Of a stretch of DNA of 11,604 bases, positions 1 to 11,604 are shown in pieces. The stretch is from positions 1 to 11,604 of the forward strand of contig CAVUXE010000072.1 in NCBI GenBank assembly GCA_963745235.1, read 5' to 3'. Position numbers and translations under genes: made by a program. The notes beneath the pieces were generated by a model, which was not told the DNA's origin, ran no database searches, and was given only the letters and a program-made list of their open reading frames with translations. This stretch comes from an uncultured Spirochaetota bacterium. Its GTDB lineage: Bacteria > Spirochaetota > Spirochaetia > SZUA-6 > Fen-1364. Each line of letters begins with the position of its first letter. Positions within the stretch are counted from its first letter, which is position 1.

Positions 1-405
1 ACTGAGGAGTCTCCAGAAGGAGCTTGAAGGCGCTCTCGCTCGTGATTTCAAAACGAAGTCAAGTTCCGCTGGATGAAATCGAGGTAAGGGGCGCCGCCCT
101 GTCGTTGGCTTCACTGTATAACGGAATGGAAAAGGTTCTGACGCAAATTCTGAGACCGCAGCGAAACCTTAGGCGAGAGCCCCAACTTGCATGCTGAACT
201 CCTTCAAAGGTCGCATTCACTCGGAGTAGTCACTGCCAAGACAGTGCAGGACTTGAAGGGTTTTCTGAGTTTTCGGCATTTCGTTCGTCACGCGTACAGC
301 TTCGAAATAGACACCAAAGCAATTGATGCCAGACTAGGCGCTGCACCCGATGTGCTGAAGCGTTTCATCACAGAAGTGCGGGCCTTTCTCGGTTACGAGG
401 GATAG
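1..405 (+). pseudogene. Frameshifted HEPN-domain ribonuclease toxin (HepT-like, MNT-HEPN toxin-antitoxin type); 5' end disrupted or outside the window
   Basis: Frame 3 (6-150) reads ...VPLDEIEVRGAALSLASLYNGMEKVLTQIL, matching the HEPN 'LxxxYNGxExI' helix. The reading then shifts near 150-154 to frame 1: DRSETLGESPNLHAELLQ...FLSFRHFVRHAYSFEID..., which contains the RX4HXY motif (RHFVRHAY). Stop TAG at 403-405. Frame 3 also has TGA at 3-5. Confidence 0.8.
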
Positions 406-847: not shown

Positions 848-1912
848 TCAGTCGACCTTGCGTATTTCAGGCGAGGAAACGACGCCGGCCACCTGCTCGC
901 CGCAAGAGCCCCTCACGATTAGTTCGGGTCGGAGGATGATGTCCTCCGAGAGATCGCTTTTGCTCTTTCCGTGGATTTGGCTAATTAGGGTTTGTGCTGC
1001 AATAGTCCCGACAGAATAACTGGGCTGTCGGATCGCCGTCAGGCAAGGTTGGAGAATCGCGGCCCACTGCGGATCGTCAAAGCTGACAATGCCGATGTCT
1101 TCAGGAATCCTAAGGCCGCTTTCCGTTATCGCCAGGAGGGTGCCCACGATCATGGATTCGCAACTAATGAACAGGGAGTCAGGCCTGTTCTTCATCTCCA
1201 GGAGCTCAAGAGTCTGCTTCTTGCTGATTTCAGTATTGAGCTCGCCATATTTGACGAGTTGCGGGTCATATGGGATCCCCTCAAGTTTGAGAGCCTCCTT
1301 GTAGCCTAGAAATCGGTCTTCCAAGGAAGCGATGCCGGGAAGCCCTTTCATTATTGCGATGCGACGGTAACCGTGTCGCGCAAGGTGCAGAACGCCTTCA
1401 CGGCTGCCCAGGCGGTTGTCTACGGTGATGGAGACGGCGTCGAGCTGCTTGAGTTTCCTGTCCACCAGCACAAGGGGCATCCCGGCGCGTTCGATCATCT
1501 TCAAGCGATGGATGTTCCGCTCGGTGGGGCAGAGGATGATCCCGTCGACCTTCCTGTTCCACAATTCCTCGAGGTGGTCCCTCTCCTTCTCAGGGTTTTC
1601 ATCGCTGTTGCATACGATGAGGTGGTAGCCGTTTTGGCGCGCAATGTCGTCAGCGCCGCGCGTCAGAAGGGTGAAAAAGTTTGTCGTGATATCGGCGATC
1701 ACCACCCCAATGCAGGAGGTGTTGTCCGTCTTCAGGCTTCGCGCGAGAATGTTGGGCGAGTAGCCGAGCCTCTTCGCTGTAGAGCGGACCCTTCTTTTTT
1801 TCTCGTCACTCACGTATCCATGGTTGCCCAGCACCCTGCTTGCGACCGTCACCGAGACCTTTGCTGCCTTGGCCACCTCGCGCAAGGTGACCTTTTTTAG
1901 GCGCGTTTTCAT
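848..1912 (-). CDS. LacI/GalR family transcriptional regulator
   Basis: N-terminal HTH VTLREVAKAAKVSVTVASRVL, hinge YSPNILARSL, and a periplasmic-binding-protein-like sensor domain (IGVVIADITTNFF, VDGIIL, IPEDIGIVSFDD, LTAIRQPSYSVG, ELIVRGSC). Divergent from the operon. Start is ATG 1912 or GTG 1918. Confidence 0.95.
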   Translation of the reverse strand: MKTRLKKVTLREVAKAAKVSVTVASRVLGNHGYVSDEKKRRVRSTAKRLGYSPNILARSLKTDNTSCIGVVIADITTNFFTLLTRGADDIARQNGYHLIVCNSDENPEKERDHLEELWNRKVDGIILCPTERNIHRLKMIERAGMPLVLVDRKLKQLDAVSITVDNRLGSREGVLHLARHGYRRIAIMKGLPGIASLEDRFLGYKEALKLEGIPYDPQLVKYGELNTEISKKQTLELLEMKNRPDSLFISCESMIVGTLLAITESGLRIPEDIGIVSFDDPQWAAILQPCLTAIRQPSYSVGTIAAQTLISQIHGKSKSDLSEDIILRPELIVRGSCGEQVAGVVSSPEIRKVD

Positions 1913-1968
1913 TACCACAGGATCTTAACACGTTTCGGTAATCCTAAGAAAGCTAAGAAAGTGGGCCG

Positions 1969-1998
1969 TTGACAGGAGCGAGAGAAGTGTGCTAAGGA
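1969..1998 (+). promoter_or_regulatory. Candidate sigma70 promoter for the operon
   Basis: Perfect TTGACA at 1969-1974. TG at 1990-1991 and a weak -10 (TAAGGA, 1993-1998) at 18-bp spacing, in the divergent intergenic region. Confidence 0.4.
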
Positions 1999-2004
1999 AA
2001 ATTG

Positions 2005-2018
2005 TGCCAACGATACCA
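2005..2018. promoter_or_regulatory. Candidate LacI-family operator
   Basis: TGCCAACGATACCA is a 14-bp imperfect palindrome (8/14 symmetric) with the central CG typical of LacI-family sites. It lies just downstream of the candidate promoter. Confidence 0.45.
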
Positions 2019-2089
2019 TATTATTCCACAAGATGCTTCTCGAGGCGGAGCGGTACGTGTGCCATGATGCGTTTTGGGGGGAACCAGCC

Positions 2090-3442
2090 ATGAAGATGAA
2101 AGAGCTATACGAGCGGGCGCAGGCGTCCTTCTTGTACGGGACGTGTGCGGCGGGACGCTACCATGCTGGGCTGGGGATGCCCCTCTATCTCAAACGAGCC
2201 GACGGCCCCTACCTCTACGATGTGGAAGGTGGCGAGTGGATCGATTTCAACACCTCCGCGGGCGCGGCATTTTTCGGGTACAACAACCCCCGTATCCGCG
2301 ACGCCGTCGAGAGATCGCTTCAGATGGGTTTTTTCATGAACTATGAAAGCGAGTATCACTACCAGCTCGCCGACCAAATCTGCCAGATCGTCCCGAGCGC
2401 CCAAAAGGTGCGTTTCTCCAACACGGGAACCGAGGTGACAATGGGGGCAGTTCGGCTGGCGCGAGCTTATACGGGAAGAGAGAAGGTCGTCCATTTCGAG
2501 GGCCACTTTCACGGGATGAATGAGCTCGTTTTCTACAACCACGGCACTCTGGGTGACATGGACTCCCATGGGGAGGTGACACCGAAGGCGGATAGCGCAG
2601 GCTTCCCGGCGAGCTATGCCGAGCCGATGATCGTCGTTGAGTTCAATCGCATCGATGCTCTCGAACATGTGGCGAAAAAGTATCGTGGCCAGATCGCCAC
2701 CGTAATCATGGAGGCGGTCTCTTACAACTGCGGCTGCATGCCCGCCTACAAGGAATACCTCCGGCAGGTCCGCGAGCTTTGTACCAGAGAGAACATCGTT
2801 CTCATTTTTGACGAAGTGCTTACCGGGTTTCGTCCTGGAATCGGCGGGGCGCAGGAGTACTACGGGGTGACCCCCGACCTGACGACGATCGCCAAGGCCC
2901 TCGGAGGGGGATTCCCCATCGCTGCTCTGGTAGGAAAACGCGAAGTTATGGAGGCGCTTAATCCTGGCGGCCCGACGGTGATGAGCGGGACATACACCGG
3001 CTCGCTCATGCCAGTGCTTGTCGCCATGGAGTGCATCGCCATGATGCGCGAGGCAGGCTTCTACCAGAGGCTCAACTCTTTGTCTCAACGGCTCTATGAC
3101 GGTATGAACAGCCTGCATCGCAGATATAAAGTCCCCGGTCATGTTCACGGGCTCGGAAACAGGTTTGCGACATATTTCGGAATCGAGAACGAAGAGGACG
3201 ATTACCATTTCAGGAAGATCGTCGAGCATTTCAACGGAGAGCTCTACAACAGGTTTGTCGCGAAGGTGCTGGAGAAGAAGCTCTATTTCCACCTCTCGGG
3301 CTGGGCCGGAAAGGGCATTTCACTTCCCACGCACTGCGGCACGACTTCAGCGCATACGGAAAAGGAGATCGATGCAGCACTCGACCGGATGGAAGGCGTG
3401 TTTAAGGAGCTTGGCAACGACCGCGCAGCTTCAAAGCGATAA
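2090..3442 (+). CDS. Class III PLP-dependent aminotransferase, glutamate-1-semialdehyde aminomutase (HemL)-like but probably not HemL
   Basis: Motifs GPYLYDVEGGEWIDF, RFSNTGTEVTMGAVRLARAYTGREK, FEGHFHG, LIFDEVLTGFR, PDLTTIAKALGGGFPI (PLP lysine) and SGTYTGS. ATG 2090 follows the SD-like GGGGGGAA; ATG 2033 is less likely. Confidence 0.92.
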   Translation: MKMKELYERAQASFLYGTCAAGRYHAGLGMPLYLKRADGPYLYDVEGGEWIDFNTSAGAAFFGYNNPRIRDAVERSLQMGFFMNYESEYHYQLADQICQIVPSAQKVRFSNTGTEVTMGAVRLARAYTGREKVVHFEGHFHGMNELVFYNHGTLGDMDSHGEVTPKADSAGFPASYAEPMIVVEFNRIDALEHVAKKYRGQIATVIMEAVSYNCGCMPAYKEYLRQVRELCTRENIVLIFDEVLTGFRPGIGGAQEYYGVTPDLTTIAKALGGGFPIAALVGKREVMEALNPGGPTVMSGTYTGSLMPVLVAMECIAMMREAGFYQRLNSLSQRLYDGMNSLHRRYKVPGHVHGLGNRFATYFGIENEEDDYHFRKIVEHFNGELYNRFVAKVLEKKLYFHLSGWAGKGISLPTHCGTTSAHTEKEIDAALDRMEGVFKELGNDRAASKR

Positions 3443-3459
3443 CGAGGGAAGGCACGAGA

Positions 3460-4635
3460 ATGAATCGCCAGACTTTGATCCAGCAATTCCTTGGAAGCCG
3501 CGAGCTGGACGGGCTTCTTCTTTTTCTTCCCGAGAACATCCTCTTTGGCAGCGGCTACTGGCCGAGCACGTCGGCCGCCCTGTACATCCCGGCGTCTGCT
3601 CGAGCCACTCTTGTTGTCCCAAAGCCCGATGAGGCGTTCGTGCCTGCCTCCTGGGAGGGGAATGTTCGGGTATACGATACGCGCCTCGATGACGATCCTA
3701 CAGACCTTTTCATGACGAAGCTTCTGCGAGACGCGATGGGAGGTGGAGCTGGTCAGAAGCTGCGATGCGGGTGCGACCGCTCCATGGAGACCATCGCGGG
3801 AACGCATATCGGCGGCGAGGCGCGTGTCCCTGGCCCACTCTTCTATGAGCTTCTATCGCGGACGATGCCTGCGATCGCTTACGTCGATGTCACCTCGTGG
3901 GTCTATGAAGCACGCATGGTCAAGAGCGATGAAGAAATCAGCGCCCTGAGGAGATGCGCCGAGGTGGTGGACAAGGCGCTTGATCTGGCCAGGGTCAAGC
4001 TCGCACCCGGGATGAAAGAGACGGAGCTCTCGGCGATCATCGAGGGGGCGGTCCAAACCTTGGGCGTCGGCTACAAGGGTACGCGGCGAGCTCGCGGTTT
4101 TGCCTTTGTGATGTCGGGTCCGCAGAACACCGCTGGCGCATGGGCGGCCTACAACATCTCCACCGACCGCATAATCTCACAGGGGGATCTCATTCTCATC
4201 GAGCTGGACAGCCACGTCGAGGGCTACTGGTCTGACATCTCACGGACGTGGGTTGTCGGAAAGCCATCGAGCCGACAGCACGAAGTCTGGAGCGCCGTTC
4301 GCGAGTGTCAACAGCGCACCGTGGAGTCTTTGAAGGTCGGCTTGAAAATATCACACGTCGATGCCACGGCGCGTGACATCCTAACCGCAAAGGGCTATGG
4401 CCCAAATTTCCTTCATCACGTGGGTCACGGAGTCGGCTTTGCGTTCCATGAGATGCCCTACCTGGATCCCGCCTCGCACGTATCGACAGATTGGGAGCTC
4501 CAGGCGGGGATGGCCCTTGCAATCGAGCCGGGCGTCTATATCGATGGTTGGGGAGCTGTCCGGATCGAAGACAACGTCGTGCTCACGGGCAAGGGGAATG
4601 CAGAGTACCTCTCAAAAGCGGACCAGAGCCTCTGA
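3460..4635 (+). CDS. M24 family metallohydrolase (Xaa-Pro peptidase/creatinase-like, pita-bread fold)
   Basis: Creatinase_N-like start (LDGLLLFLPENILFGSGY), RMVKSDEEI, GYWSDISRT, HHVGHGVG, FHEMP, AIEPGVY and VRIEDNV. Starts 17 bp after the aminotransferase stop, with SD-like GAGGGAAGG. Confidence 0.92.
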   Translation: MNRQTLIQQFLGSRELDGLLLFLPENILFGSGYWPSTSAALYIPASARATLVVPKPDEAFVPASWEGNVRVYDTRLDDDPTDLFMTKLLRDAMGGGAGQKLRCGCDRSMETIAGTHIGGEARVPGPLFYELLSRTMPAIAYVDVTSWVYEARMVKSDEEISALRRCAEVVDKALDLARVKLAPGMKETELSAIIEGAVQTLGVGYKGTRRARGFAFVMSGPQNTAGAWAAYNISTDRIISQGDLILIELDSHVEGYWSDISRTWVVGKPSSRQHEVWSAVRECQQRTVESLKVGLKISHVDATARDILTAKGYGPNFLHHVGHGVGFAFHEMPYLDPASHVSTDWELQAGMALAIEPGVYIDGWGAVRIEDNVVLTGKGNAEYLSKADQSL

Positions 4636-4737
4636 GCGACGGTGGAGCGATCCCTCGCGAAGGGCAACGCAGATTGAGGAAAAGGGCTGGAGCATAAGGG
4701 CTTCAGACTTAAGAATCCTACCTGAAGGAGGTAGAAC

Positions 4738-5736
4738 ATGAAGCGTTTCGTGCGTTTTATGTTGGTGGCCATTGCGATCGTCGCAGTGGCAGGTGTCGCG
4801 AGCGCCGGCGGGACCAAGGAAGGAGCTGGCCCTGCCAAAAAACTCGTTATTGCGTTCTCGCCGGGAGTGACGACCAACCCCTTCTATGTCGCCATGCAGT
4901 ATGGGGCAGTCACGGCGGCGAAGAAGTACAACGTCAGCCTGATCTGGCAGGGCTCTCAGCAGTGGGACTTCAACCAACAATCGGTCGTCCTCCAGTCTAT
5001 GCTGACGCAGAAGCCCGATGCTTTGATCCTGTCTCCGACTGATCCTGATGCCTTGAAACCCCTTTTGCAGCAGGCTGTGAGTCAGGGAGCTCTCGTCATC
5101 ACAACGGACACCGACATTAACGATCCGACCTTTGCCATCAGGAAGCAGTGGATTGGCTCGGACAACGTGAAGGGTGGGCAGATGGCGGGAGAAGCGCTTG
5201 CGAAAGCCCTGAACGGCAAGGGCGATGTCGCCCTCATGGGCTCGCTGGTCGGGGTGACGACCAACGAGGATAGGTACAAAGGCTTCAAGGATGCTCTGGC
5301 GAAGTATCCCGACATCAAGATTGTGACCACGCAGTACAGTAACGACGACCAAGCCACAGCAGCCTCGCAGATGCAGTCAGTGCTTCTGTCCAACCCGAAT
5401 CTCGCAGGGGCATTTGGAGTGGACACTCCAACGGCACACGGGGACGCCGTCGGAATTAAGAACGCCAGCATGGGCGGCAAAGTCGTGTTGGTCGGCTTCG
5501 ATTCACAGCCGCTTGAGGTTGATGACCTGAAGGCGGGCCTGATTACCATGCTGGTAACCCAGGGGCCCTATCAGATGGGCTACCTCGCGGTGGAGAACGC
5601 CTATAAGTACCTGACAGGCCAGACGAAGGAGCTTCAGCAGAAAATCACGACAGACATGTACGTCATTACGTCGCAGAACGTGAACGATCCCGAAACTGCG
5701 AAGTGGGTCTACCAGACTTCTTTGCCGAGCAATTGA
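4738..5736 (+). CDS. Sugar ABC transporter substrate-binding protein (CUT2, RbsB-like class I periplasmic binding protein)
   Basis: Signal peptide MKRFVRFMLVAIAIVAVAGVASA, then GGTKE. Motifs NPFYVAMQYGA, KPDALILSP, IGSDNVKGGQMAG, RYKGF, VGFD and QGPYQMGY. SD AGGAGGT at 4726-4732. Confidence 0.95.
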   Translation: MKRFVRFMLVAIAIVAVAGVASAGGTKEGAGPAKKLVIAFSPGVTTNPFYVAMQYGAVTAAKKYNVSLIWQGSQQWDFNQQSVVLQSMLTQKPDALILSPTDPDALKPLLQQAVSQGALVITTDTDINDPTFAIRKQWIGSDNVKGGQMAGEALAKALNGKGDVALMGSLVGVTTNEDRYKGFKDALAKYPDIKIVTTQYSNDDQATAASQMQSVLLSNPNLAGAFGVDTPTAHGDAVGIKNASMGGKVVLVGFDSQPLEVDDLKAGLITMLVTQGPYQMGYLAVENAYKYLTGQTKELQQKITTDMYVITSQNVNDPETAKWVYQTSLPSN

Positions 5737-5744
5737 TGTTCTGC

Positions 5745-5773
5745 GAAGGGGGTATCCATCCGGTACCCCCTTC
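5745..5773 (+). other. Intercistronic stem-loop after the binding-protein gene (mRNA stabiliser or attenuator)
   Basis: Perfect 10-bp stem GAAGGGGGTA(5745-5754)/TACCCCCTTC(5764-5773) with a 9-nt loop and no strong U tract. Confidence 0.7.
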
Positions 5774-5813
5774 CTGCTATTATTTCGACAAAGATCGGCA
5801 AGGGTGGTGAGCA

Positions 5814-6773
5814 ATGGGGAAGTTATCGAACAAGTGGATTTTCTTTATTCTGGTCATCTTCGTCATCTTCTTTTCGATTACTGCCCGTGGCTTCTTCTCG
5901 CTTCTCGGTCTGCGCAACATTGCGGTCTTCGTCTCTGAACCCCTGCTTCTCGCAGTCGGCGAGACCTTCGTCATTATATCGGGCGGAATCGACCTTTCCG
6001 TTGGGGCTGTTCTGGGCTTCACCGGGGTTGTTGGGGCTTTGATCATGCGGGGGATCTGGGTGTCGACCCAGAGTATAGCCTTAAGCATCATCGTCGCCAC
6101 GCTAGCGGGTCTGGCGATCGGCACGGCAATAGGAACGATCAACGGCCTCATCATTGCCAAGCTGAGGGTCCCTCCCTTCGTGGTCACCCTGGGGATGCTC
6201 GGCATTGCTCGCGGGATCACCTTCGTTATTACCTCCGGACAAGCGATCATTGGGCTTCCCGACGCACTTGGTGCGATCGGCAATCTGAACTTTTTCGGCT
6301 TTCTTCCCGTCACGACGCTCGTGGCAATCCTCATCATCCTGCTTGCCTCCCTTGCCCTTTCCCGGACGAGGGTTGGCCGCTACGCGTATGCCATCGGTGG
6401 CAACAGGCAGGCAACTGTTCGCGCCGGCGTTCCTGTAGCGCGCTACACGATCATCATCTACGCAATTTCCGGCTTTCTGGCAGGCTGCGCGGGCTTCATG
6501 CTGCTTGCGCGTTTCGCAACGGGATCGCCGCTCGCCGGCCAGAACTCCGAGCTCAACGCCATTGCCGCGGCGGTCATCGGCGGTACCAGTCTTTTCGGCG
6601 GGATCGGCTCGATTGGGGGGACTGCCGTTGGCGCTCTCATCATCGTCGTGCTTCTTGTCGGTCTTGTCATCCTGAATGTCCAGCCGTACTGGCAGATGGC
6701 AGCCGTTGGCGCTATCCTTATCCTGGCGGTTTTTATCGACAACCTACGCTTTGGTCGGGGACTCGAAGAATGA
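5814..6773 (+). CDS. Sugar ABC transporter permease (RbsC-like)
   Basis: Highly hydrophobic. Motifs GETFVIISGGIDLSVG, VPPFVVTLG, RTRVGRYAYAIGGNRQATVRAGV (EAA loop) and ELNAIAAAVIGGTSLFGGIGS. Confidence 0.96.
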   Translation: MGKLSNKWIFFILVIFVIFFSITARGFFSLLGLRNIAVFVSEPLLLAVGETFVIISGGIDLSVGAVLGFTGVVGALIMRGIWVSTQSIALSIIVATLAGLAIGTAIGTINGLIIAKLRVPPFVVTLGMLGIARGITFVITSGQAIIGLPDALGAIGNLNFFGFLPVTTLVAILIILLASLALSRTRVGRYAYAIGGNRQATVRAGVPVARYTIIIYAISGFLAGCAGFMLLARFATGSPLAGQNSELNAIAAAVIGGTSLFGGIGSIGGTAVGALIIVVLLVGLVILNVQPYWQMAAVGAILILAVFIDNLRFGRGLEE

Positions 6774-7534
6774 GGGAAGAAGGCATGGCGGAGAGTGAGA
6801 CTATTCTTCGCGTGGAGAACATTTCCAAGAACTTCGGCGGGATCCAAGCTGTCCAGGGCGTTAGCTTCGACGTGCACAAGGCAGAAGTTGTGGGGTTGCT
6901 TGGCGACAACGGAGCCGGCAAATCGACGATAGTGAAGATGATTTCTGGTGTTTCGCGGCCGACACAAGGCTCCATTTACTTCATGGGGGAGCGTGTGGAT
7001 TCAGCCTCGCCCTGGGAGATTCGTGAGCGGGGGATCGAAACCATTTACCAGGATCTGGCGCTTGCCGACAACTTGGAGATCACGGCAAATATGTTTTTGG
7101 GGCGCGAGCACCTAAGGCGTGTTTTTGGTTTGTCTTTTCTGGATGAAAAAAAGATGCGGGGGCAGGCGGAGGAGATACTAAAGAAGCTCAAGATCGACTT
7201 ATCGCGTCCGCGGGCCCGCGTCCGTGATCTCTCTGGAGGGCAGCGGCAATCGGTCGCCATCGGACGCGCGATTTTTTGGAAAGCGAAGCTCGTCATTCTC
7301 GATGAACCGACCGCGGCCCTGGGAGTCCGTGAACGGGCCAATGTGTTGGAGCTGATAAAATCTCTCAAGAAGGAAGAGGTCTCCGTCATCCTCATCAGCC
7401 ATAACCTGACCGATGTGTTCGAGGTGACTGACAGACTTGTCGTTCTGCGTCGTGGTGAGAAAATTCGCGAACTTCGGACCAAGGAGACCACAGAGCACCA
7501 AGTGGTGCATCTTATGATTGGTTCGGAGAGCTGA
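6770..7534 (+). CDS. Sugar ABC transporter ATP-binding protein (single nucleotide-binding domain)
   Basis: Walker A GDNGAGKS, Q-loop IYQDL, signature LSGGQRQ, Walker B ILDEPT and H-loop ISHN. ATGA overlap with the permease stop; alternative start ATG 6785. Confidence 0.96.
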   Translation: MREEGMAESETILRVENISKNFGGIQAVQGVSFDVHKAEVVGLLGDNGAGKSTIVKMISGVSRPTQGSIYFMGERVDSASPWEIRERGIETIYQDLALADNLEITANMFLGREHLRRVFGLSFLDEKKMRGQAEEILKKLKIDLSRPRARVRDLSGGQRQSVAIGRAIFWKAKLVILDEPTAALGVRERANVLELIKSLKKEEVSVILISHNLTDVFEVTDRLVVLRRGEKIRELRTKETTEHQVVHLMIGSES

Positions 7535-7975
7535 GAGGGGAGTCCATTTCATTCGTGACATTTCTTGACCGAAGGCATAGAACTGATGAAGAGCGGGGTC
7601 GATTGAATCGAAGACAGCTTTTGGCGGCGAATGGACGACCGCAAGGCGCATGATCTGCCGGGCTGCCTCAGGGATAAGCTCCTCGAGCTCCGGCAGATTT
7701 TTTGCGATCTTTGCGATCCGGGCGGCGATCGGTGCACGCAACGAATACCTGAAGTGGACCAACCGGAAGATATAGGGAGGGTTGACGGAGAGTTCCAAAA
7801 TTGGTGCTCAAAATGGCCTATTTATGGAACCTCAGAACCTCAGAAGTTGGCAAGCCAAAACGGCCAGCGGCGGCCCGCTTCTAAACTAATAGCAAGAGTT
7901 CCTTTCTTTAGGAGGACCTGGAAATGACTTCATAATCGTTCTCCTTGCCGTGTTGTACGCCCGCCCGTCAACTAA

Positions 7976-8682
7976 GAGCGCGTCCCTAAAGCCATACGCG
8001 TGTCATCCTGAAGCAAATAATCGCGTTTGCGAACTGGACAAGTGCTTCATAGTTGATCGCTTTGCGGCAGTAACGAATTTTTAGTTCACGAAATAGATTC
8101 ACCCAACGACCCGTTCGTTCAACAACCCAGCGGCGGGAAGGATGCTTTGTCCGATTGGTTTCGATCCCCAGTCCTCTGTTTGCTGCCCAGCTTCCCTCGA
8201 TCAGTTGGGTTTTTCCCTATTTTTTTCCCCTTTTTCGGGAGCCGACACCGTATGGCTGTCCAGAATCTGCCCACCGCCAAGCGATCCCTCTCAGCTCGTC
8301 ATACTCGCGCAGGCAGTGTTCCCACATTTTTCTGAACACCCCTTGAACAGCCCATTTCTGGAAATAGCGGTGAGTCGTGCTGCCCGAGTAGTATTCCCGG
8401 GGAAGCATTTTCCACTGACAGCCCGTGCGCAGAAGGTAGAAGATCCCATTAAGGACTTTTCGCGCATCTGCTGGCGGCCTTCCCCCCGGCCCCCTCTTCG
8501 GTTTTTGCTTCGGAATGAATTCTTTGACCTCTTCCCAAAACTCATCACGAATGTCTCTCCAGCCTGGTCGCCGCGGAAGCGGCTGACGGTTCTCCTTCCT
8601 TCGCACAGTGGTTCCCCTCCCACGAAGGGAACGTTAGCGAGAAATCTCCAAAAGTTCTAGATATTAGTTTTGGGACGCACTC
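7976..8682 (-). mobile_element. IS5-family insertion sequence (IS427/IS1031-like), 707 bp, internally deleted and non-autonomous
   Basis: Terminal inverted repeats GAGCGCGTCCCTAAA (7976-7990) and TTTTGGGACGCACTC (8668-8682) match at 13/15. Flanking 3-bp direct repeats TAA (7973-7975, 8683-8685). Encloses transposase remnants. Confidence 0.9.
7986..8606 (-). pseudogene. IS5-family transposase, frameshifted with a central deletion
   Basis: OrfA: WEEVKEFIP..GGRPPADARKVLNGIFYLLRTGCQWKMLP..STTHRYFQKW, ending RGKK* at an A7 run (8220-8226). The QILDSHTVSAP motif is out of frame. OrfB GKNPTDRGKLGSK is joined near 8178 to the C-terminal RRWVVERTGRWVNLFRELKIRY...FRMTRVWL*, with the stop inside the IR (7986-7988). 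Confidence 0.88.
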
Positions 8683-8720
8683 TAAGCGGGAGAAGGACGT
8701 TAGAGGGAAAACTTCATAAT

Positions 8721-10442
8721 CAGGCTGTCGAAAAACCCTGGTCTTCCAGAATAATCATTGTTTGGCGCTACGGCAGGATGTAGAATGAGGAGTCGAATCC
8801 GCCATTGGTGAGGCACGGGAGGGACTTCATGCCGGCATTCCTCATTCCGAATCGATCCCAGATGCTGCTGCTCACACAGGTTGACCTTTCGACTGTCGCT
8901 CTTGAGGGGAGCGCGGTGCGTATCATAGACGACCTGGTGGATTCTTTGGACACCCGTGCAATCGAAGAATCCTATGAGGTGGGTAGTGACAATGGACGAC
9001 CACCTTTTCATCCGAAAACTCTTCTGAAAGTCGCTCTGCTGGCGATTCATAGCTGCCGGTTCTCGCTGCGAAAGATTGAAGAAGACACAATCAACAACCT
9101 GGCCTATAAGTGGTTGACCGGCGATATGACAATCGATCATTCAACGATGGGACTTTTTCTGGCACGATTTGTCGAGGAAATCGTGGAGTTGTTCAGCCAA
9201 GTTGTTGCCAGTTGTGCAGAACAGAATCTGATCGAATTCGACCTTCTGGCCATAGACACCGTGAAGCTGCGGGCCAGTGCCAACTACAAGCAGAGCAAAA
9301 CCCTCGAGGGGATCACGAAAGAAGAAAACAAGATTGCAGAGCGTCTGAAGGAAGTGCTGGAGACCGCCTCGGATGCGAAGAGCGCCGAGGTGGAGGAAGT
9401 GCTGGCGTTGAAACGGCGTGCGCAAAGGGTACAGGAAGCCAGGAAGGTTCTCCTGCAACGATTGGCAGAGAAGAGCCGCGAGGCGGGAGAGAAAAAAAAG
9501 CAAGCGCTTCTCGAAAAGGAGAAGGTCAACATCACCGACCCGGACGCACATATCATGCAACAGGCGAATGGGGAGAAGAACCCAGCGTTTTCGATTACCA
9601 CGACGACGGATGTGGGCCACGATATTGTTACACACTTCCAAGTGAACGCGCAGAACGATGATGTGGCAGCGTTGCCTGAGGCGATTGAGGGCAGCCGTCA
9701 GAACACCGGTGAGAAGCACCGTGAGGTAGAAGCGGACTCCGGATTTGCCAGCATGGAGAACTACGAGAAGCTGGAATTGGATGGGCAGGAGGCACTGATC
9801 CCCGATCTGCACATGGAAGTAGAGGAAAGGGGAACGATGGCGAGAGGGGAGTATGATCGCTCGAAGTTCAGTTTTCGAGCGAAGAGCGACAGCTATCGTT
9901 GTCCGAGCGGATGGATATTAAGAAATACAGGTTCTGTTGAAGTTCACGGCCGGCTTCGTGACCGCTACGAGAATCCGAGTGCCTGCGCTAGATGTGCCGT
10001 TCGCAGCAAATGCGCGAAGGGGACGCACCGGCGGGTGTTCCGGGATCGCAATGAAGAAGTGCGAGACCGGATGCGGACGAAGCTTGAAAAGAAAAGGTCA
10101 CACGGCAGGTACAACAAACGTGCGCACGCTGCAGAGTCGCCGTTCGGCAATATCAAATGGAACCTGAAGTTTCGCGCGGTGATGCGCAGGGGCATAGGAA
10201 AGGTGCGCATGGAGGCGGCGCTGTTGTTCATGCTGCACAACTTCATGAAAATGGCGGCAGCGCCTGCCTAGTTCCGAGAGGGATCGCGGATAGCCGCCTT
10301 TAGGGGCCTACGAAAGGCTGGGATGGAGCACAGCTATGAAAAATCACAGGCGGACTCCGTACCGCCGTCGAATACTCATTACAAGCCTGCGATCACGATA
10401 CATCCCCAGGTCCGTGCGCATATCGGTTTTTTCGACAGCCTG
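8721..10442 (+). mobile_element. IS1182-family insertion sequence, 1722 bp, apparently intact
   Basis: IRL CAGGCTGTCGAAAAACCC (8721-8738) and IRR GGTTTTTTCGACAGCCTG (10425-10442) match at 17/18. 3-bp direct repeat AAT (8718-8720, 10443-10445). Single transposase ORF. Confidence 0.93.
8829..10271 (+). CDS. IS1182-family DDE transposase
   Basis: DUF772-like N-terminus (GRPPFHPKTLLK..SLRKIE..YKWL..IDHST). D1 AIDTVKLRASAN, TDPDA, D2 ADSGF, Cys cluster (YRCPSG..CARCAVRSKC) and E in AESPFGNIK. SD GGAGGGA precedes ATG 8829. Confidence 0.95.
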   Translation: MPAFLIPNRSQMLLLTQVDLSTVALEGSAVRIIDDLVDSLDTRAIEESYEVGSDNGRPPFHPKTLLKVALLAIHSCRFSLRKIEEDTINNLAYKWLTGDMTIDHSTMGLFLARFVEEIVELFSQVVASCAEQNLIEFDLLAIDTVKLRASANYKQSKTLEGITKEENKIAERLKEVLETASDAKSAEVEEVLALKRRAQRVQEARKVLLQRLAEKSREAGEKKKQALLEKEKVNITDPDAHIMQQANGEKNPAFSITTTTDVGHDIVTHFQVNAQNDDVAALPEAIEGSRQNTGEKHREVEADSGFASMENYEKLELDGQEALIPDLHMEVEERGTMARGEYDRSKFSFRAKSDSYRCPSGWILRNTGSVEVHGRLRDRYENPSACARCAVRSKCAKGTHRRVFRDRNEEVRDRMRTKLEKKRSHGRYNKRAHAAESPFGNIKWNLKFRAVMRRGIGKVRMEAALLFMLHNFMKMAAAPA

Positions 10443-10517
10443 AATATGAATGTTATGGCCAAAGTACTTATCGCTCCTGACAGGCGGAATGAAAGGGCCG
10501 ATAGGAGAGACTAGTAA

Positions 10518-10793
10518 ATGCTCTATCGAAGAATAGCCTGGAAGAACATTAGATTACTAAAAAGCACCGATAGAACCTACGCGATGATCTGTTCGAGGCA
10601 CTTCAAAAACGACAAGCAAACGGTCGCCAAGCAACACAGAAACATCACGAAGCATGCAAACCAGATCGCATATTCGATCCGCCAGGCAGAAGAGTATTTT
10701 GAGTCCGCTTCGGTCGTAAGTCTTGCTACCGAGCCGCTCTTGCATTCGGCTGGGCAACCACGCTACTTTCAATTTGTTCTCGCGTCTTCCTAG
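10518..10793 (+). pseudogene. N-terminal fragment of a YaaC-like family protein, truncated near 10742
   Basis: SD AGGAGA at 10503-10508. IAYSIRQAEEYFESASVVSLATEPLL matches, from recall, the YaaC-like 'QAxEYFxxAxxxSLxTxPLLxYYG' motif. The expected YYG and the remainder of the protein are missing; only about 91 aa are present. Confidence 0.65.
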
Positions 10794-10821
10794 TCTTGCT
10801 TTCCATATCATTCCCTCTTCA

Positions 10822-11604
10822 TCAACGCCTGGTCAAACGGGCCGAGGCGCTTATTGCCAACACTAGCAAAGCCATAAGAGCCAACCCGAACGCAAGATTG
10901 GAGAGCTTGGCAACGCCACCGATGATTGCCGGTCCCAGGAGAATCCCTGTGTAGGCAATCGTGCTGACGACAGATACCGCTTGGTTAACCGGCATCACAC
11001 TTTGCTTCCCTATGAGGGAAAAGAGGACGGGGACGATATTAGACATCCCCAGACCGATCACTCCGAATCCGACGAAGGTCATCCACCAGAAGGGGGCGGT
11101 GATAACTACGCCGAATCCTAAGGCGCCTATCAATCCGCCGAACAGTAGGACGCGGAAGCCGCCCAGCGTACGTACAATTGCATCTCCTGCGAGGCGGCAG
11201 AACAACATAATGACAGAGAAGGCTATGTAGCCCATCCCGGCCAAGGATATGGCCACGTTTTTGTTCGACGACAAGAAGACTGCCCCCCAATCCAGTACGG
11301 ATCCTTCGGCCATGAACGCGATAAAGCAAAGCACCCCGACCCCGAGGACCATTCCATGAGGGAACTTCATTCTTTCTTTCTTCGGCGAAGGGCTACCATA
11401 TGGTAACAGTCCCCTCGAAGACATGAAGTGAAGAAGTACGACAGCTATGACTGGGACCAAGACGGCAGCCCAAGGGACAAAGCCGAGTGCGAACAAACCC
11501 AGCAACAAACCCGATCCCGCGAACCCGCCGATGCTCCAGCCTGCATGGAAACCTGACATCAAGGGTCGGCCACTCGCCTTCTCGACGATTACGGCCTGGA
11601 TATT
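10822..11604 (-). CDS. MFS transporter, YbjJ-like (partial; 5' end beyond the window)
   Basis: Open from the window edge: NIQAVIVEKASGRPLMSGFHAGWSIGG, then FMAEGSVLDWGAVFL, RLAGDAIVRTLG, GLGMSNIVPVLFS and YTGILLGPAIIG. Multiple TM helices. Stop TGA at 10822-10824. Confidence 0.93.
   Translation of the reverse strand, partial: NIQAVIVEKASGRPLMSGFHAGWSIGGFAGSGLLLGLFALGFVPWAAVLVPVIAVVLLHFMSSRGLLPYGSPSPKKERMKFPHGMVLGVGVLCFIAFMAEGSVLDWGAVFLSSNKNVAISLAGMGYIAFSVIMLFCRLAGDAIVRTLGGFRVLLFGGLIGALGFGVVITAPFWWMTFVGFGVIGLGMSNIVPVLFSLIGKQSVMPVNQAVSVVSTIAYTGILLGPAIIGGVAKLSNLAFGLALMALLVLAISASARLTRR

What the first reader, a model, noticed from the sequence alone, without database searches (positions are those of the whole stretch)
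848..7534. LacI-controlled aminotransferase + M24 hydrolase + sugar ABC operon: candidate undescribed amino-sugar or aminocyclitol conjugate catabolic pathway
Seen: five tightly co-oriented intact genes divergent from a LacI regulator. The only enzymes act on C-N bonds, while the transporter and regulator are sugar-type. The operon has no kinase, NagA/NagB, isomerase or dehydrogenase. Known: HemL-like class III enzymes include aminoglycoside amino-sugar transaminases (NeoB/BtrB, GenB). Pita-bread hydrolases include non-peptidases (creatinase, ectoine hydrolase DoeA, agropine synthase/cyclase-type enzymes). An M24 plus class III aminotransferase pair (DoeA/DoeD) degrades ectoine. Inference: the cell imports an N-acyl/aminoacyl or cyclic amino-sugar or aminocyclitol, hydrolyses the amide, and transaminates the product to a keto-sugar or inosose, possibly for nitrogen scavenging.
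Basis: partly seen in the sequence, partly recalled or inferred. Interest (0 to 1): 0.75.

Follow-up and report, generated by a model that had tools for sequence, protein, structure and literature searches.

The report
Sugar-type operon with amide hydrolase and transaminase
This is a real, rare gene cluster, conserved across phyla, that probably imports a sugar-like nitrogen compound, cuts an amide bond and then removes the amino group; no described pathway was found that matches it, and its substrate is still unknown.

Summary
A LacI gene (848-1918, minus strand) faces five co-oriented intact genes: a HemL-like class III aminotransferase (AT), an M24 hydrolase, a CUT2 sugar-binding protein, a permease and a single-domain ATPase (2033-7534).

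- **Conservation:** The same six genes recur at 62-74% identity in two metagenome contigs. AT-M24 pairs recur in Verrucomicrobiota and gut Bacillota.
- **Not housekeeping:** The AT is not the genome's hemL; a separate hemL lies on another contig.
- **The M24:** It keeps five metal ligands. It belongs to a non-canonical subfamily that lacks the conserved prolidase His and has its own Arg-x-Arg motif. Its fold is as close to creatinase and ectoine hydrolase as to prolidases.
- **Related loci:** These add glutamate dehydrogenase, mannonate dehydratase and oxidoreductase, tagaturonate epimerase, a gluconate-5-dehydrogenase-like SDR, a hexonate epimerase, a kinase and gnd. In some loci the M24 is replaced by M81, Amidohydro_2 or caprolactamase-like hydrolases.

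Best reading: uptake of a sugar-shaped amide or lactam of an amino-aldonic acid, hydrolysis, then transamination to a 5-keto-hexonate. The logic resembles the ectoine and caprolactam pathways, but this cluster is a member of neither. The substrate is inferred, not shown. Eight literature searches found no description. The cluster is rare: no counterpart at the set thresholds in 40 relatives or in two samples of 400 genomes.

The parts
848..1918 (-). LacI-family transcriptional regulator (356 aa), divergent from the operon
   Evidence: LacI HTH 50 bits, Peripla_BP_3 92 bits; every NCBIfam equivalog is below its cut-off (best CcpA 202 vs 442). Orthologues at 68-77% identity occupy the same position in L095, L097 and L098.
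2005..2018 (+). Candidate LacI-type operator TGCCAACGATACCA, inside a 28-bp stretch conserved with L097/L098
   Evidence: Sequence read and alignment. The pattern is unique in the window (expected 0.04). Among 145 loci it is found only upstream of the AT gene in L097, L098 and the window's own copies. The pattern was derived from these same sequences, so this is a lead and not proof. Its resemblance to the cre/LacI consensus is recalled from memory.
2033..3442 (+). HemL-like class III (PLP) aminotransferase; probable start at 2090 (450 aa)
   Evidence: PF00202 222 bits; hemL TIGR00713 339 bits vs cut-off 527; NF000818 347 vs 398. PLP lysine K288 is invariant in 27 homologues. Best solved relatives are GSA aminomutases (262 bits), followed by chains named only aminotransferase and then D-phenylglycine aminotransferase.
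3460..4635 (+). Non-canonical M24 'pita-bread' metallohydrolase (391 aa)
   Evidence: Searches give the family hits. D250, D259, H323, E356 and E370 align with the metal ligands of prolidase 1pv9; the prolidase 'PHG' His is Tyr here; subfamily motifs are R210-x-R212 and N26/W34. Model pLDDT is 92.7. Fold ties: creatinase Z 39.2, prolidases Z 38, EutD/DoeA Z 35.7.
4738..5736 (+). CUT2 periplasmic sugar-type binding protein with a signal peptide (no lipobox Cys)
   Evidence: Model pLDDT 93.7. Best structure is 5dkv: Z 39.3, 39% identity. The orthologue group runs down to 47% identity and then drops to 40%.
5814..6773 (+). CUT2 ABC permease
   Evidence: BPD_transp_2 128 bits; ribose permease model 197 vs 398. 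It is 67% identical in L097/L098.
6770..7534 (+). ABC ATPase with a single nucleotide-binding domain (254 aa)
   Evidence: it matches only the first half of the ~500-aa CUT2 ATPase models. The same short form occurs in L097/L098 (256 and 249 aa), so the nearby IS element did not truncate it.

Best explanation
The window holds a LacI-repressed catabolic operon for an imported, sugar-shaped nitrogen compound that carries an amide (C-N) bond.

**Proposed steps**
1. The CUT2 binding protein, permease and ATPase take the compound up.
2. The non-canonical M24 metallohydrolase cleaves an amide. This is either a ring lactam or an N-acyl/aminoacyl group, and cleavage exposes a free amine.
3. The HemL-like PLP enzyme acts as a true transaminase. 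It passes the amine to 2-oxoglutarate and leaves a keto compound that general metabolism can use.
4. LacI, probably bound at 2005-2018, is released by the substrate or an intermediate.

**Favoured substrate class:** an amide or delta-lactam of an amino-aldonic (amino-hexonic) acid, with a 5-keto-hexonate (5-keto-gluconate, fructuronate or tagaturonate) as the transamination product.

**Shown:** gene content, conservation, family and fold assignments, and the contexts of relatives.

**Inferred:** every chemical step, the order of hydrolysis and transamination, and the substrate. I give about 0.45 to the general mechanism and about 0.2-0.25 to the amino-hexonate subtype for this window.
For: **Conserved unit**
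- LacI-AT-M24-SBP-permease-ATPase recurs in L097 and L098. Identities for the six genes are LacI 68-70%, AT 73-74%, M24 62%, SBP 71%, permease 67% and ATPase 65%. L095 holds LacI-AT-M24, and L096 holds AT plus an M24 stub.
- In the AT tree of 70 rows, the window sits in a 7-row clade (SH-aLRT 97). Six of the seven have a full M24 next to the AT, and the seventh (L096) has the M24 stub.
- AT and M24 identities to the window fall together: 81/70, 73/62, 59/43, 52/28.
- The AT, M24 and SBP hit lists share exact longest-contig lengths in six cases: 647005, 37750, 43114, 21542, 3911 and 27957. This is indirect evidence of co-location.

**Transaminase rather than HemL**
- The AT scores below the hemL cut-off, and a separate hemL-like gene lies on contig C33.
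- Glutamate dehydrogenase lies in the AT-M24 clusters L030, L020 and L099.

**The M24**
- The AT-linked M24s fall in one M24 subfamily. That subfamily excludes 5 of 6 prolidase-like paralogues sampled from the window's own genome and three carrier genomes.
- The window's protein retains its metal ligands but has an altered substrate-side motif.
- Its fold ties with the small-molecule C-N hydrolases creatinase and EutD.
- Fusions to a xylose-isomerase-like TIM barrel exist (P0232, P0238).

**A hydrolase beside the AT is the rule**
- The hydrolase is M24, M81/MlrC, Amidohydro_2 or caprolactamase-like HyuAB, depending on the lineage.
- L097 and L098 carry LacI-HyuA-HyuB divergent from AT-M24.

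**Sugar-acid exit in M24-linked relatives**
- L019, L020 and L099 carry UxuA; L019 and L099 also show a mannitol-dehydrogenase-family enzyme next to it (L020 ends before that position). No UxaC was seen among the ORFs scanned.
- L035 and L032 carry a gluconate-5-dehydrogenase-like SDR, a PfkB kinase and gnd. L035 also has a LarA-type putative hexonate epimerase (589 bits vs cut-off 500).
- L017 has tagaturonate epimerase (636 bits) directly upstream of the AT, plus D-mannonate oxidoreductase (426 vs 281).
- Both mannitol-dehydrogenase-family enzymes and gluconate 5-dehydrogenases act on the carbon next to the terminal CH2OH (established knowledge, recalled). That points to a 5-keto-hexonate.
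Against: - No downstream sugar-acid gene lies in the window itself or in its closest relatives (L095-L098).
- The sugar-acid inference comes from loci whose AT is only 49-54% identical and whose M24 is about 28% identical to the window's.
- M24-linked ATs form two separate clades in the AT tree (at least 3 changes), so the pairing may have arisen twice, possibly for different substrates.
- The wider AT family also sits in clearly different contexts: TRAP transporters, corrinoid methyltransferase modules and aldehyde dehydrogenases. Specificity therefore varies within the family.
- The Verrucomicrobiota partners carry Asn, and the Bacillota partners Gly/Ala, at the first metal-ligand position. 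The chemistry may differ between clades.
- CUT2 binding proteins usually bind neutral monosaccharides. The closest solved relative is an ordinary sugar binder at 39% identity.
- The M24 still scores best against prolidase models (160.7 bits).
- No experiment and no expression data exist.
Confidence: 0.45

Rival explanations
1. The substrate is a neutral N-acyl/aminoacyl amino sugar or an aminocyclitol (inosamine) conjugate. M24 removes the acyl group, and the AT yields a keto-sugar or inosose that enters central or inositol catabolism encoded elsewhere.
For: - The transporter and regulator are of neutral-sugar type.
- No sugar-acid genes lie in the window or in L095-L098.
- The Verrucomicrobiota cluster L030 holds two GFO/IDH/MocA oxidoreductases (IolG model 136 bits, below cut-off), a GMC oxidoreductase and a glucose-1-dehydrogenase-type SDR.
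- M24 fusions to a xylose-isomerase/IolE-like TIM barrel exist.
- Weaker solved relatives of the AT include aminoglycoside C-6' aminotransferases at 125 bits.
Against: - No iol, nag or aminoglycoside-type genes were seen in any of the AT-M24 loci scanned.
- The rhizopine binding-protein model scores 73 vs 420.
- All five Bacillota AT-M24 loci carry hexonate/hexuronate genes instead.
Confidence: 0.2
2. A peptide or amino-acid module that merely sits with a sugar transporter. M24 would be a dipeptidase for an unusual dipeptide, and the AT would deaminate a released non-proteinogenic or omega-amino acid. The ABC system would import that peptide-like compound or an unrelated sugar.
For: - The best M24 sequence matches are prolidases (150 bits to 1wy2; PepQ model 160.7 bits).
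- All five metal ligands are present in the window protein.
- In other lineages the AT sits beside M81/MlrC peptidases and Dpp-type (SBP_bac_5) transporters.
- Many AT relatives are evidently omega-amino-acid transaminases, judged by neighbouring aldehyde dehydrogenases and TRAP systems.
Against: - The CUT2 binding-protein orthologue group tracks AT and M24 on the same contigs.
- The regulator is LacI-type.
- The M24 subfamily lacks the conserved prolidase His and excludes 5 of 6 prolidase-like paralogues sampled from the window's own genome and three carrier genomes.
- Sugar-acid genes sit in the related operons.
Confidence: 0.12
3. The HemL-like enzyme works as an aminomutase rather than a transaminase. 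It would shift an amino group between C1 and C2 of an amino sugar or amino uronate (2-amino-aldose to 1-amino-ketose or the reverse), by analogy with GSA to 5-aminolevulinate. The M24 would act before or after that step.
For: - The closest curated families and solved structures are GSA 2,1-aminomutases (347 bits, 262 bits).
- 2-amino-2-deoxy-aldoses are alpha-amino aldehydes like GSA (chemical reasoning, not tested).
Against: - Scores fall below both hemL cut-offs.
- Glutamate dehydrogenase in three related clusters fits 2-oxoglutarate/glutamate cycling by a transaminase.
- The downstream genes expect a nitrogen-free keto-hexonate.
Confidence: 0.06

Closest known systems
Ectoine degradation (EutD/DoeA M24 hydrolase, DoeB deacetylase, DoeD class III transaminase)
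   Same: An M24 pita-bread enzyme opens or cleaves a small-molecule C-N bond, and a class III transaminase then removes the freed amine. The fold match to EutD is Z 35.7 over 363 residues.
   Different: - DoeA models score 67 and 52 bits against cut-offs of 575 and 613.
- The diaminobutyrate transaminase model scores 148 against 753.
- The window has no DoeB or DoeC.
- Its transporter and regulator are sugar-type.
Caprolactam / valerolactam catabolism (ATP-dependent lactamase of the oxoprolinase family plus an omega-transaminase)
   Same: Ring amide hydrolysis is followed by class III transamination. I saw this only in the search listing and abstract start of PMC6061476. Caprolactamase-like HyuA/HyuB lie next to the LacI gene in L097/L098, and with an SDR and the AT in Rhizobium L029 and L033.
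   Different: - The window has an M24 hydrolase and no HyuAB.
- The best HyuA in its own genome is 36% identical and lies elsewhere.
- HyuA/B scores (507-541 and 227 bits) are far below the caprolactamase cut-offs of 1000.
Xaa-Pro dipeptidase (prolidase, M24B) and creatinase
   Same: The two-domain Creatinase_N plus pita-bread fold is shared, with Z 38-39 to both. The five metal ligands of prolidase are kept.
   Different: - The PepQ equivalog model scores 160.7 against 630.
- The conserved 'PHG' His is replaced.
- The subfamily has its own R-x-R and N-terminal motifs.
- Creatinase is metal-free (recalled), whereas this protein keeps the ligands.
Hexuronate/hexonate routes with UxaE, mannonate oxidoreductase, LarA-type gluconate/mannonate epimerase and gnd (Thermotoga-type)
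   Same: Related AT loci carry exactly these genes. The LarA paper (passages read) shows D-gluconate 2-epimerases and proposes that group 18 acts on a hexonate.
   Different: - The usual entry enzyme UxaC was not seen among the ORFs scanned, and the AT (with a hydrolase) stands in its place.
- None of these genes is in the window itself.
Ribose/monosaccharide CUT2 ABC importers (RbsB-type; PDB 5dkv)
   Same: Fold and family match: Z 39.3 and 39% identity to 5dkv.
   Different: - All NCBIfam equivalogs are below their cut-offs (best RhaS 109 against 342).
- The ATPase has one domain, not two.
- The ligand of 5dkv could not be read from the truncated title. I recall it as a tagatopyranose complex, unverified.

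Membership tests
Glutamate-1-semialdehyde 2,1-aminomutase (HemL) | Score at or above the curated equivalog cut-off (TIGR00713, 527.3 bits) | tested here: not met
   339.4 bits. The subfamily model NF000818 scores 347.2 against 398.
Glutamate-1-semialdehyde 2,1-aminomutase (HemL) | It is the genome's hemL (the tetrapyrrole housekeeping copy) | tested here: not met
   A separate hemL-like gene lies at G000:C33:18452-19715. It reads in two frames (263 + 343 bits).
Class III PLP aminotransferases (PF00202) | Pfam gathering score and a conserved PLP lysine | tested here: met
   222 bits against 30.5. K288 is invariant in 27 homologues.
Xaa-Pro dipeptidase / M24B | Five metal ligands (Asp, Asp, His, Glu, Glu) | tested here: met
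   D250, D259, H323, E356 and E370 align with 1pv9 positions 209, 220, 284, 313 and 327. That these are the ligand positions is recalled from memory.
Xaa-Pro dipeptidase / M24B | Curated equivalog score, and the conserved substrate-side His of the 'PHG' motif | tested here: not met
   NF040821 scores 160.7 against 630. The His is Tyr in the window and is absent throughout the subfamily. The role of this His is recalled from memory.
Ectoine hydrolase DoeA/EutD | Curated model score; DoeB/DoeC/DoeD partners | tested here: not met
   67.4 against 575 and 51.8 against 613. No deacetylase or dehydrogenase lies in the window. Fold similarity only, Z 35.7.
Creatinase | Metal-free active site (recalled); fold | tested here: inconclusive
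   The fold is at the top of the list, tied with prolidases (Z 39.2). The window protein keeps the metal ligands.
CUT2 sugar ABC importer | Peripla_BP_4 binding protein plus BPD_transp_2 permease plus ATPase | tested here: met
   207, 128 and 114 bits.
CUT2 sugar ABC importer | Fused two-domain ATPase of about 500 aa | tested here: not met
   The ATPase is 254 aa and matches only the first half of the 500-aa models. L097/L098 have the same short form.
LacI/GalR regulators | N-terminal LacI HTH plus a periplasmic-binding-protein-like effector domain | tested here: met
Rhizopine (moc) catabolism | Rhizopine binding-protein equivalog | tested here: not met
   NF052284 scores 73.1 against 420.
Caprolactamase-type lactam pathway | HyuA/HyuB-like ATP-dependent lactamase in the cluster | tested here: not met
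   Absent from the window. Present beside the orthologous cluster in L097/L098.

The most novel reading that the evidence does not exclude
The AT-hydrolase module is the core of an undescribed catabolic route for aza-sugar-derived lactams (nojirimycin-type hexono-delta-lactams) or other amino-aldonic acid amides.

In this route a sugar transporter imports a pyranose-shaped lactam. An M24, Amidohydro_2, M81 or caprolactamase-like enzyme, depending on the lineage, opens it to a 5-amino-5-deoxy-hexonate. The HemL-like transaminase then converts that to 5-keto-gluconate, fructuronate or tagaturonate, so the amino compound joins the hexuronate pathway without UxaC.

If true, this would be the first degradation pathway for iminosugar-type glycosidase inhibitors, and a new non-peptidase activity for the M24 fold.
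Probability: 0.12. Interest if true: 0.8.

Novelty: new variant of a known kind. Interest (0 to 1): 0.52.

Why it matters
If the reading is right, the cluster defines a new entry point into hexuronate/hexonate metabolism, in which an amide hydrolase and a transaminase replace the uronate isomerase. It would also define a new small-molecule activity for a widespread but unstudied M24 subfamily, with members in Bacteria and Archaea, including gut Bacillota.

It would name a nutrient, or a glycosidase inhibitor being detoxified, that rare members of soil, sediment and gut communities compete for.

More practically, it gives a compact set of four soluble proteins (LacI, binding protein, M24, AT) whose ligands can be screened directly.

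Tried and rejected
- **Relatives:** No orthologue was found. 0 of 40 relatives had a hit above 39% identity. 0 of 400 other genomes of the same phylum matched at E <= 1e-120. 0 of 400 other genomes of the phylum of L030 matched its M24 at E <= 1e-90. These are samples, so this means 'not found in those searched'.
- **Literature:** Searches found nothing that describes the cluster. One search gave only the LarA paper.
- **Earlier findings of this scan:** Searches returned nothing relevant.
- **ESM Atlas for the M24:** Only generic M24 clusters.
- **Inverted-repeat search in the intergenic region:** Found none.
- **Promoter scan:** No sigma-70-like site upstream of the operon.
- **Own genome:** The HyuA search found only a 36% relative elsewhere. 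No gluconate-5-dehydrogenase equivalog scored above cut-off. A UxuA is present on C15 but is split across frames.
- **Cluster-member look-up:** Gave no organism names for the closest homologues.
- **Sequencing runs:** No RNA holder listed.
- **Ligand of 5dkv:** Could not be read from the truncated title.
- **Considered and set aside as sole explanations:**
  - N-acetyl-D-glucosaminate from oxidised chitin. Transamination would give 2-keto-gluconate, which fits the 5-keto-type reductases and UxaE less well. The cluster's rarity also argues against such an abundant substrate.
  - Amadori compounds, which have no amide bond for a hydrolase to cut.
  - N-acetyl-aminouronic acids, which would need an extra reduction step not seen in the clusters.

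Full report
**What is in the window**

The window is a whole 11.6-kb contig (C72) of a 5.85-Mb metagenome-assembled genome, 86% complete with 5.9% contamination.
- a LacI-family regulator on the minus strand (848-1918);
- divergent from it, a class III aminotransferase (AT; ORF 2033-3442, likely start 2090);
- an M24 hydrolase (3460-4635);
- a CUT2 binding protein (4738-5736);
- a permease (5814-6773);
- an ABC ATPase (6770-7534).

The genes are tightly spaced, and the last two overlap by 4 bp. No kinase, deacetylase of the NagA type, deaminase, isomerase or dehydrogenase lies in this stretch.

Downstream are two ORFs without family hits (7631-7927, 8142-8660). Next comes an IS1182-family element (8713-10450) with 26-nt inverted ends. 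Six full-length relatives of that element, at 84-89% identity, lie on other contigs of the same genome. This mildly supports the contig belonging to this bin.

**Is the cluster a unit?**

Yes.
- A scan of metagenome contigs gave 8 loci. L097 and L098 hold all six genes in the same order and orientation: LacI 68-70%, AT 73-74%, M24 62%, SBP 71%, permease 67%, ATPase 65%.
- L095 holds LacI-AT-M24, and L096 holds AT plus the first 34 residues of M24. Both are cut by contig ends.
- Of 79 loci from species-representative genomes, 6 have an M24 directly after the AT. These are two Verrucomicrobiota (L016, L030: AT 58-59%, M24 43%) and four Bacillota (L019, L020, L032, L035: AT 49-52%, M24 about 28%). 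Many of the other loci end close to the AT.
- In a 70-row AT tree the window falls in a 7-row clade (SH-aLRT 97). Every member of that clade has an M24 or an M24 stub next to the AT. The Bacillota pairs form a second clade, so the label needs at least three changes.
- The hit lists for AT, M24 and the binding protein share exact longest-contig lengths six times, and pairwise about a dozen more times. This is indirect evidence that the three genes travel together, down to about 55/40/50% identity, including one archaeal MAG.
- The binding-protein orthologue group ends sharply at 47% identity, with the next hit at 40%.
- A 28-bp stretch upstream of the AT gene is 24/28 identical between the window and L098 in an otherwise diverged spacer. 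Its core, TGNCAACGNTACCA (window 2005-2018), is unique in the window. Among 145 loci it occurs only at that place in L097, L098 and the window's own copies. I read it as the LacI operator. The pattern was derived from the same sequences, so it is only a lead.

**How common is it?**

The cluster is rare.
- 0 of 40 relatives hit the AT above 39% identity.
- 0 of 400 other genomes of the same phylum match at E <= 1e-120.
- 0 of 400 other genomes of the phylum of L030 match its M24 at E <= 1e-90.

It is therefore a sporadic accessory module, here sitting next to an IS element.

**The aminotransferase**

- It is HemL-like but scores below both hemL cut-offs (339 against 527; 347 against 398).
- The genome has a separate hemL-like gene on C33, read in two frames.
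- The PLP lysine K288 is invariant.
- Solved relatives are GSA aminomutases (262 bits), followed by chains named only aminotransferase and then D-phenylglycine aminotransferase.
- Glutamate dehydrogenase sits in three AT-M24 clusters (L030, L020, L099). This fits a transaminase that cycles 2-oxoglutarate and glutamate.

**The M24**

- Aligned with prolidase 1pv9, the window protein keeps all five metal-ligand positions (D250, D259, H323, E356, E370) and the HxxGHxxGxxxHE block. The ligand numbering is recalled.
- The conserved His of the prolidase 'PHG' motif is Tyr here and is missing throughout the subfamily.
- The subfamily also has its own nearly invariant R210-x-R212 and N-terminal PEN..SGYWP motifs.
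- The first ligand is Asn in the Verrucomicrobiota partners and Gly/Ala in the Bacillota partners.
- A confident model (pLDDT 92.7) is equally close to creatinases (Z 39.2), prolidases (Z 38) and ectoine hydrolase EutD (Z 35.7).
- In an M24 tree, all AT-linked M24s lie in one subfamily (SH-aLRT 88). That subfamily excludes 5 of 6 prolidase-like paralogues sampled from the window's own genome and three carrier genomes.
- Two actinomycete members are fused to a xylose-isomerase-like TIM barrel.
- The protein is thus a metallohydrolase of a non-canonical kind, and not a demonstrated peptidase.

**What the relatives' neighbourhoods say**

I clustered 871 neighbouring ORFs and annotated the recurrent clusters.

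The AT family is almost always beside a hydrolase, but the fold of that hydrolase changes with lineage:
- M24;
- M81/MlrC;
- Amidohydro_2;
- a caprolactamase-like HyuA/HyuB pair, as in Rhizobium L029 and L033, whose cluster also holds LacI, a class IV aminotransferase, a gluconate-5-dehydrogenase-like SDR and the AT.

L097 and L098 themselves have LacI-HyuA-HyuB on the strand opposite to AT-M24.

The M24-linked Bacillota clusters end in sugar-acid genes:
- L019, L020 and L099 carry mannonate dehydratase; L019 and L099 also show a mannitol-dehydrogenase-family enzyme next to it (L020 ends before that position). No UxaC was seen among the ORFs scanned.
- L035 and L032 carry a gluconate-5-dehydrogenase-like SDR, a PfkB kinase and true gnd. 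L035 also has a LarA-type 'putative hexonate epimerase' above its cut-off.
- L017 (AT 54%) has tagaturonate epimerase directly upstream of the AT, with D-mannonate oxidoreductase, a kinase, gnd and the same epimerase.
- The Verrucomicrobiota clusters add a glucose-1-dehydrogenase-type SDR, GMC and GFO/IDH/MocA oxidoreductases and a CUT1 transporter.

The LarA paper (passages read) shows gluconate/mannonate 2-epimerases and proposes a hexonate for group 18. I could not see its Table S1.

Mannitol-dehydrogenase-family enzymes and gluconate 5-dehydrogenases act next to the terminal CH2OH, and UxaE acts on tagaturonate/fructuronate (recalled knowledge). These contexts therefore point to a 5-keto-hexonate as the AT product, and so to a 5-amino-5-deoxy-hexonate as its substrate.

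The simplest precursor that needs a hydrolase and suits sugar-type uptake is a hexono-delta-lactam or an N-acyl form.

**Limits**

- None of these exit genes is in the window or in L095-L098.
- The inference is carried over from loci at 49-59% AT identity.
- The wider AT family clearly has other substrates in other contexts: TRAP systems with GlcD/F-like oxidases and FGGY kinases, corrinoid methyltransferase modules and aldehyde dehydrogenases.
- The binding protein is a typical monosaccharide binder by fold (Z 39.3, 39% identity to 5dkv).
- There are no expression data.

**Comparison with known systems**

The logic (C-N hydrolase, then class III transaminase) is that of ectoine degradation and of caprolactam/valerolactam degradation. 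Every membership test against those families, and against HemL, PepQ, DoeA and the rhizopine system, fails on curated scores or partners. Eight literature searches found no description. I therefore class it as a new variant of a known kind of catabolic module, with substrate unknown.

**Verdict**

The unit, the non-peptidase M24 and the non-HemL AT hold up. The likely chemistry shifts from amino sugar or aminocyclitol towards an amino-aldonic acid amide or lactam.
- Interest is moderate: a clean, testable, cross-phylum orphan pathway, but not a surprise in kind.

Noticed in passing
window 8713-10450: An IS1182-family element. The transposase (8805-10271) scores 314 bits against a cut-off of 270, and the element has 26-nt terminal inverted repeats (92%). 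Six full-length relatives at 84-89% identity lie on other contigs of the same genome, often near contig ends.
   Followed up: yes
window 187-405 (and 24-197): A 72-aa ORF with a HepT-like (HEPN toxin) domain (PF20797, 37.5 bits). It matches only the C-terminal half of the profile, so it looks like a broken or truncated toxin-antitoxin remnant at the contig start.
   Followed up: partly
window 6770-7534; L097 11633-12403; L098 14764-15513: The CUT2-type ATPase has one nucleotide-binding domain (249-256 aa), whereas the Bacillota counterparts have the usual fused ~500-aa form. The short form is conserved, so the IS element did not truncate it.
   Followed up: partly
G000:C33:18452-19715; C15:106134-107186; C10:114034-115447: The genome's hemL-like gene, a UxuA and an SDR each read in two or more frames. 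This suggests indel-type assembly errors (or pseudogenes) in this MAG.
   Followed up: no
L127 (G000:C53:330000-349000), about 5128-10896: The window's own genome has a second M24 of the same non-canonical subfamily (337 aa). It lies after two SDR genes, with a GFO/IDH/MocA oxidoreductase, a thiolase-like gene and an alpha/beta hydrolase nearby. This may be another small-molecule pathway.
   Followed up: partly
proteins P0232, P0238: M24 subfamily members fused to an AP_endonuc_2 / xylose-isomerase-like TIM barrel (630-632 aa), in records named Nocardia and Sciscionella.
   Followed up: no
L098 3366-8601 and L097 260-5498: Next to the orthologous cluster lie a caprolactamase-like HyuA/HyuB pair and an MttB-family (trimethylamine methyltransferase-like) gene. 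L098 also carries MTHFR, MetH-like and MetE genes.
   Followed up: partly
L022, L025, L027, L028, L082-L086: Another recurrent AT context in gut Bacillota combines a TRAP transporter, a second class III aminotransferase, a GlcD/GlcF-like FAD oxidase, an FGGY kinase, ETF and RpiR. It is probably a different amino-hydroxy-acid pathway.
   Followed up: no
window 7631-7927, 8142-8660, 10822-11562(-): Three ORFs (98, 172 and 246 aa) have no Pfam or NCBIfam hit. The first two lie between the operon and the IS element and are not conserved in L097/L098.
   Followed up: partly
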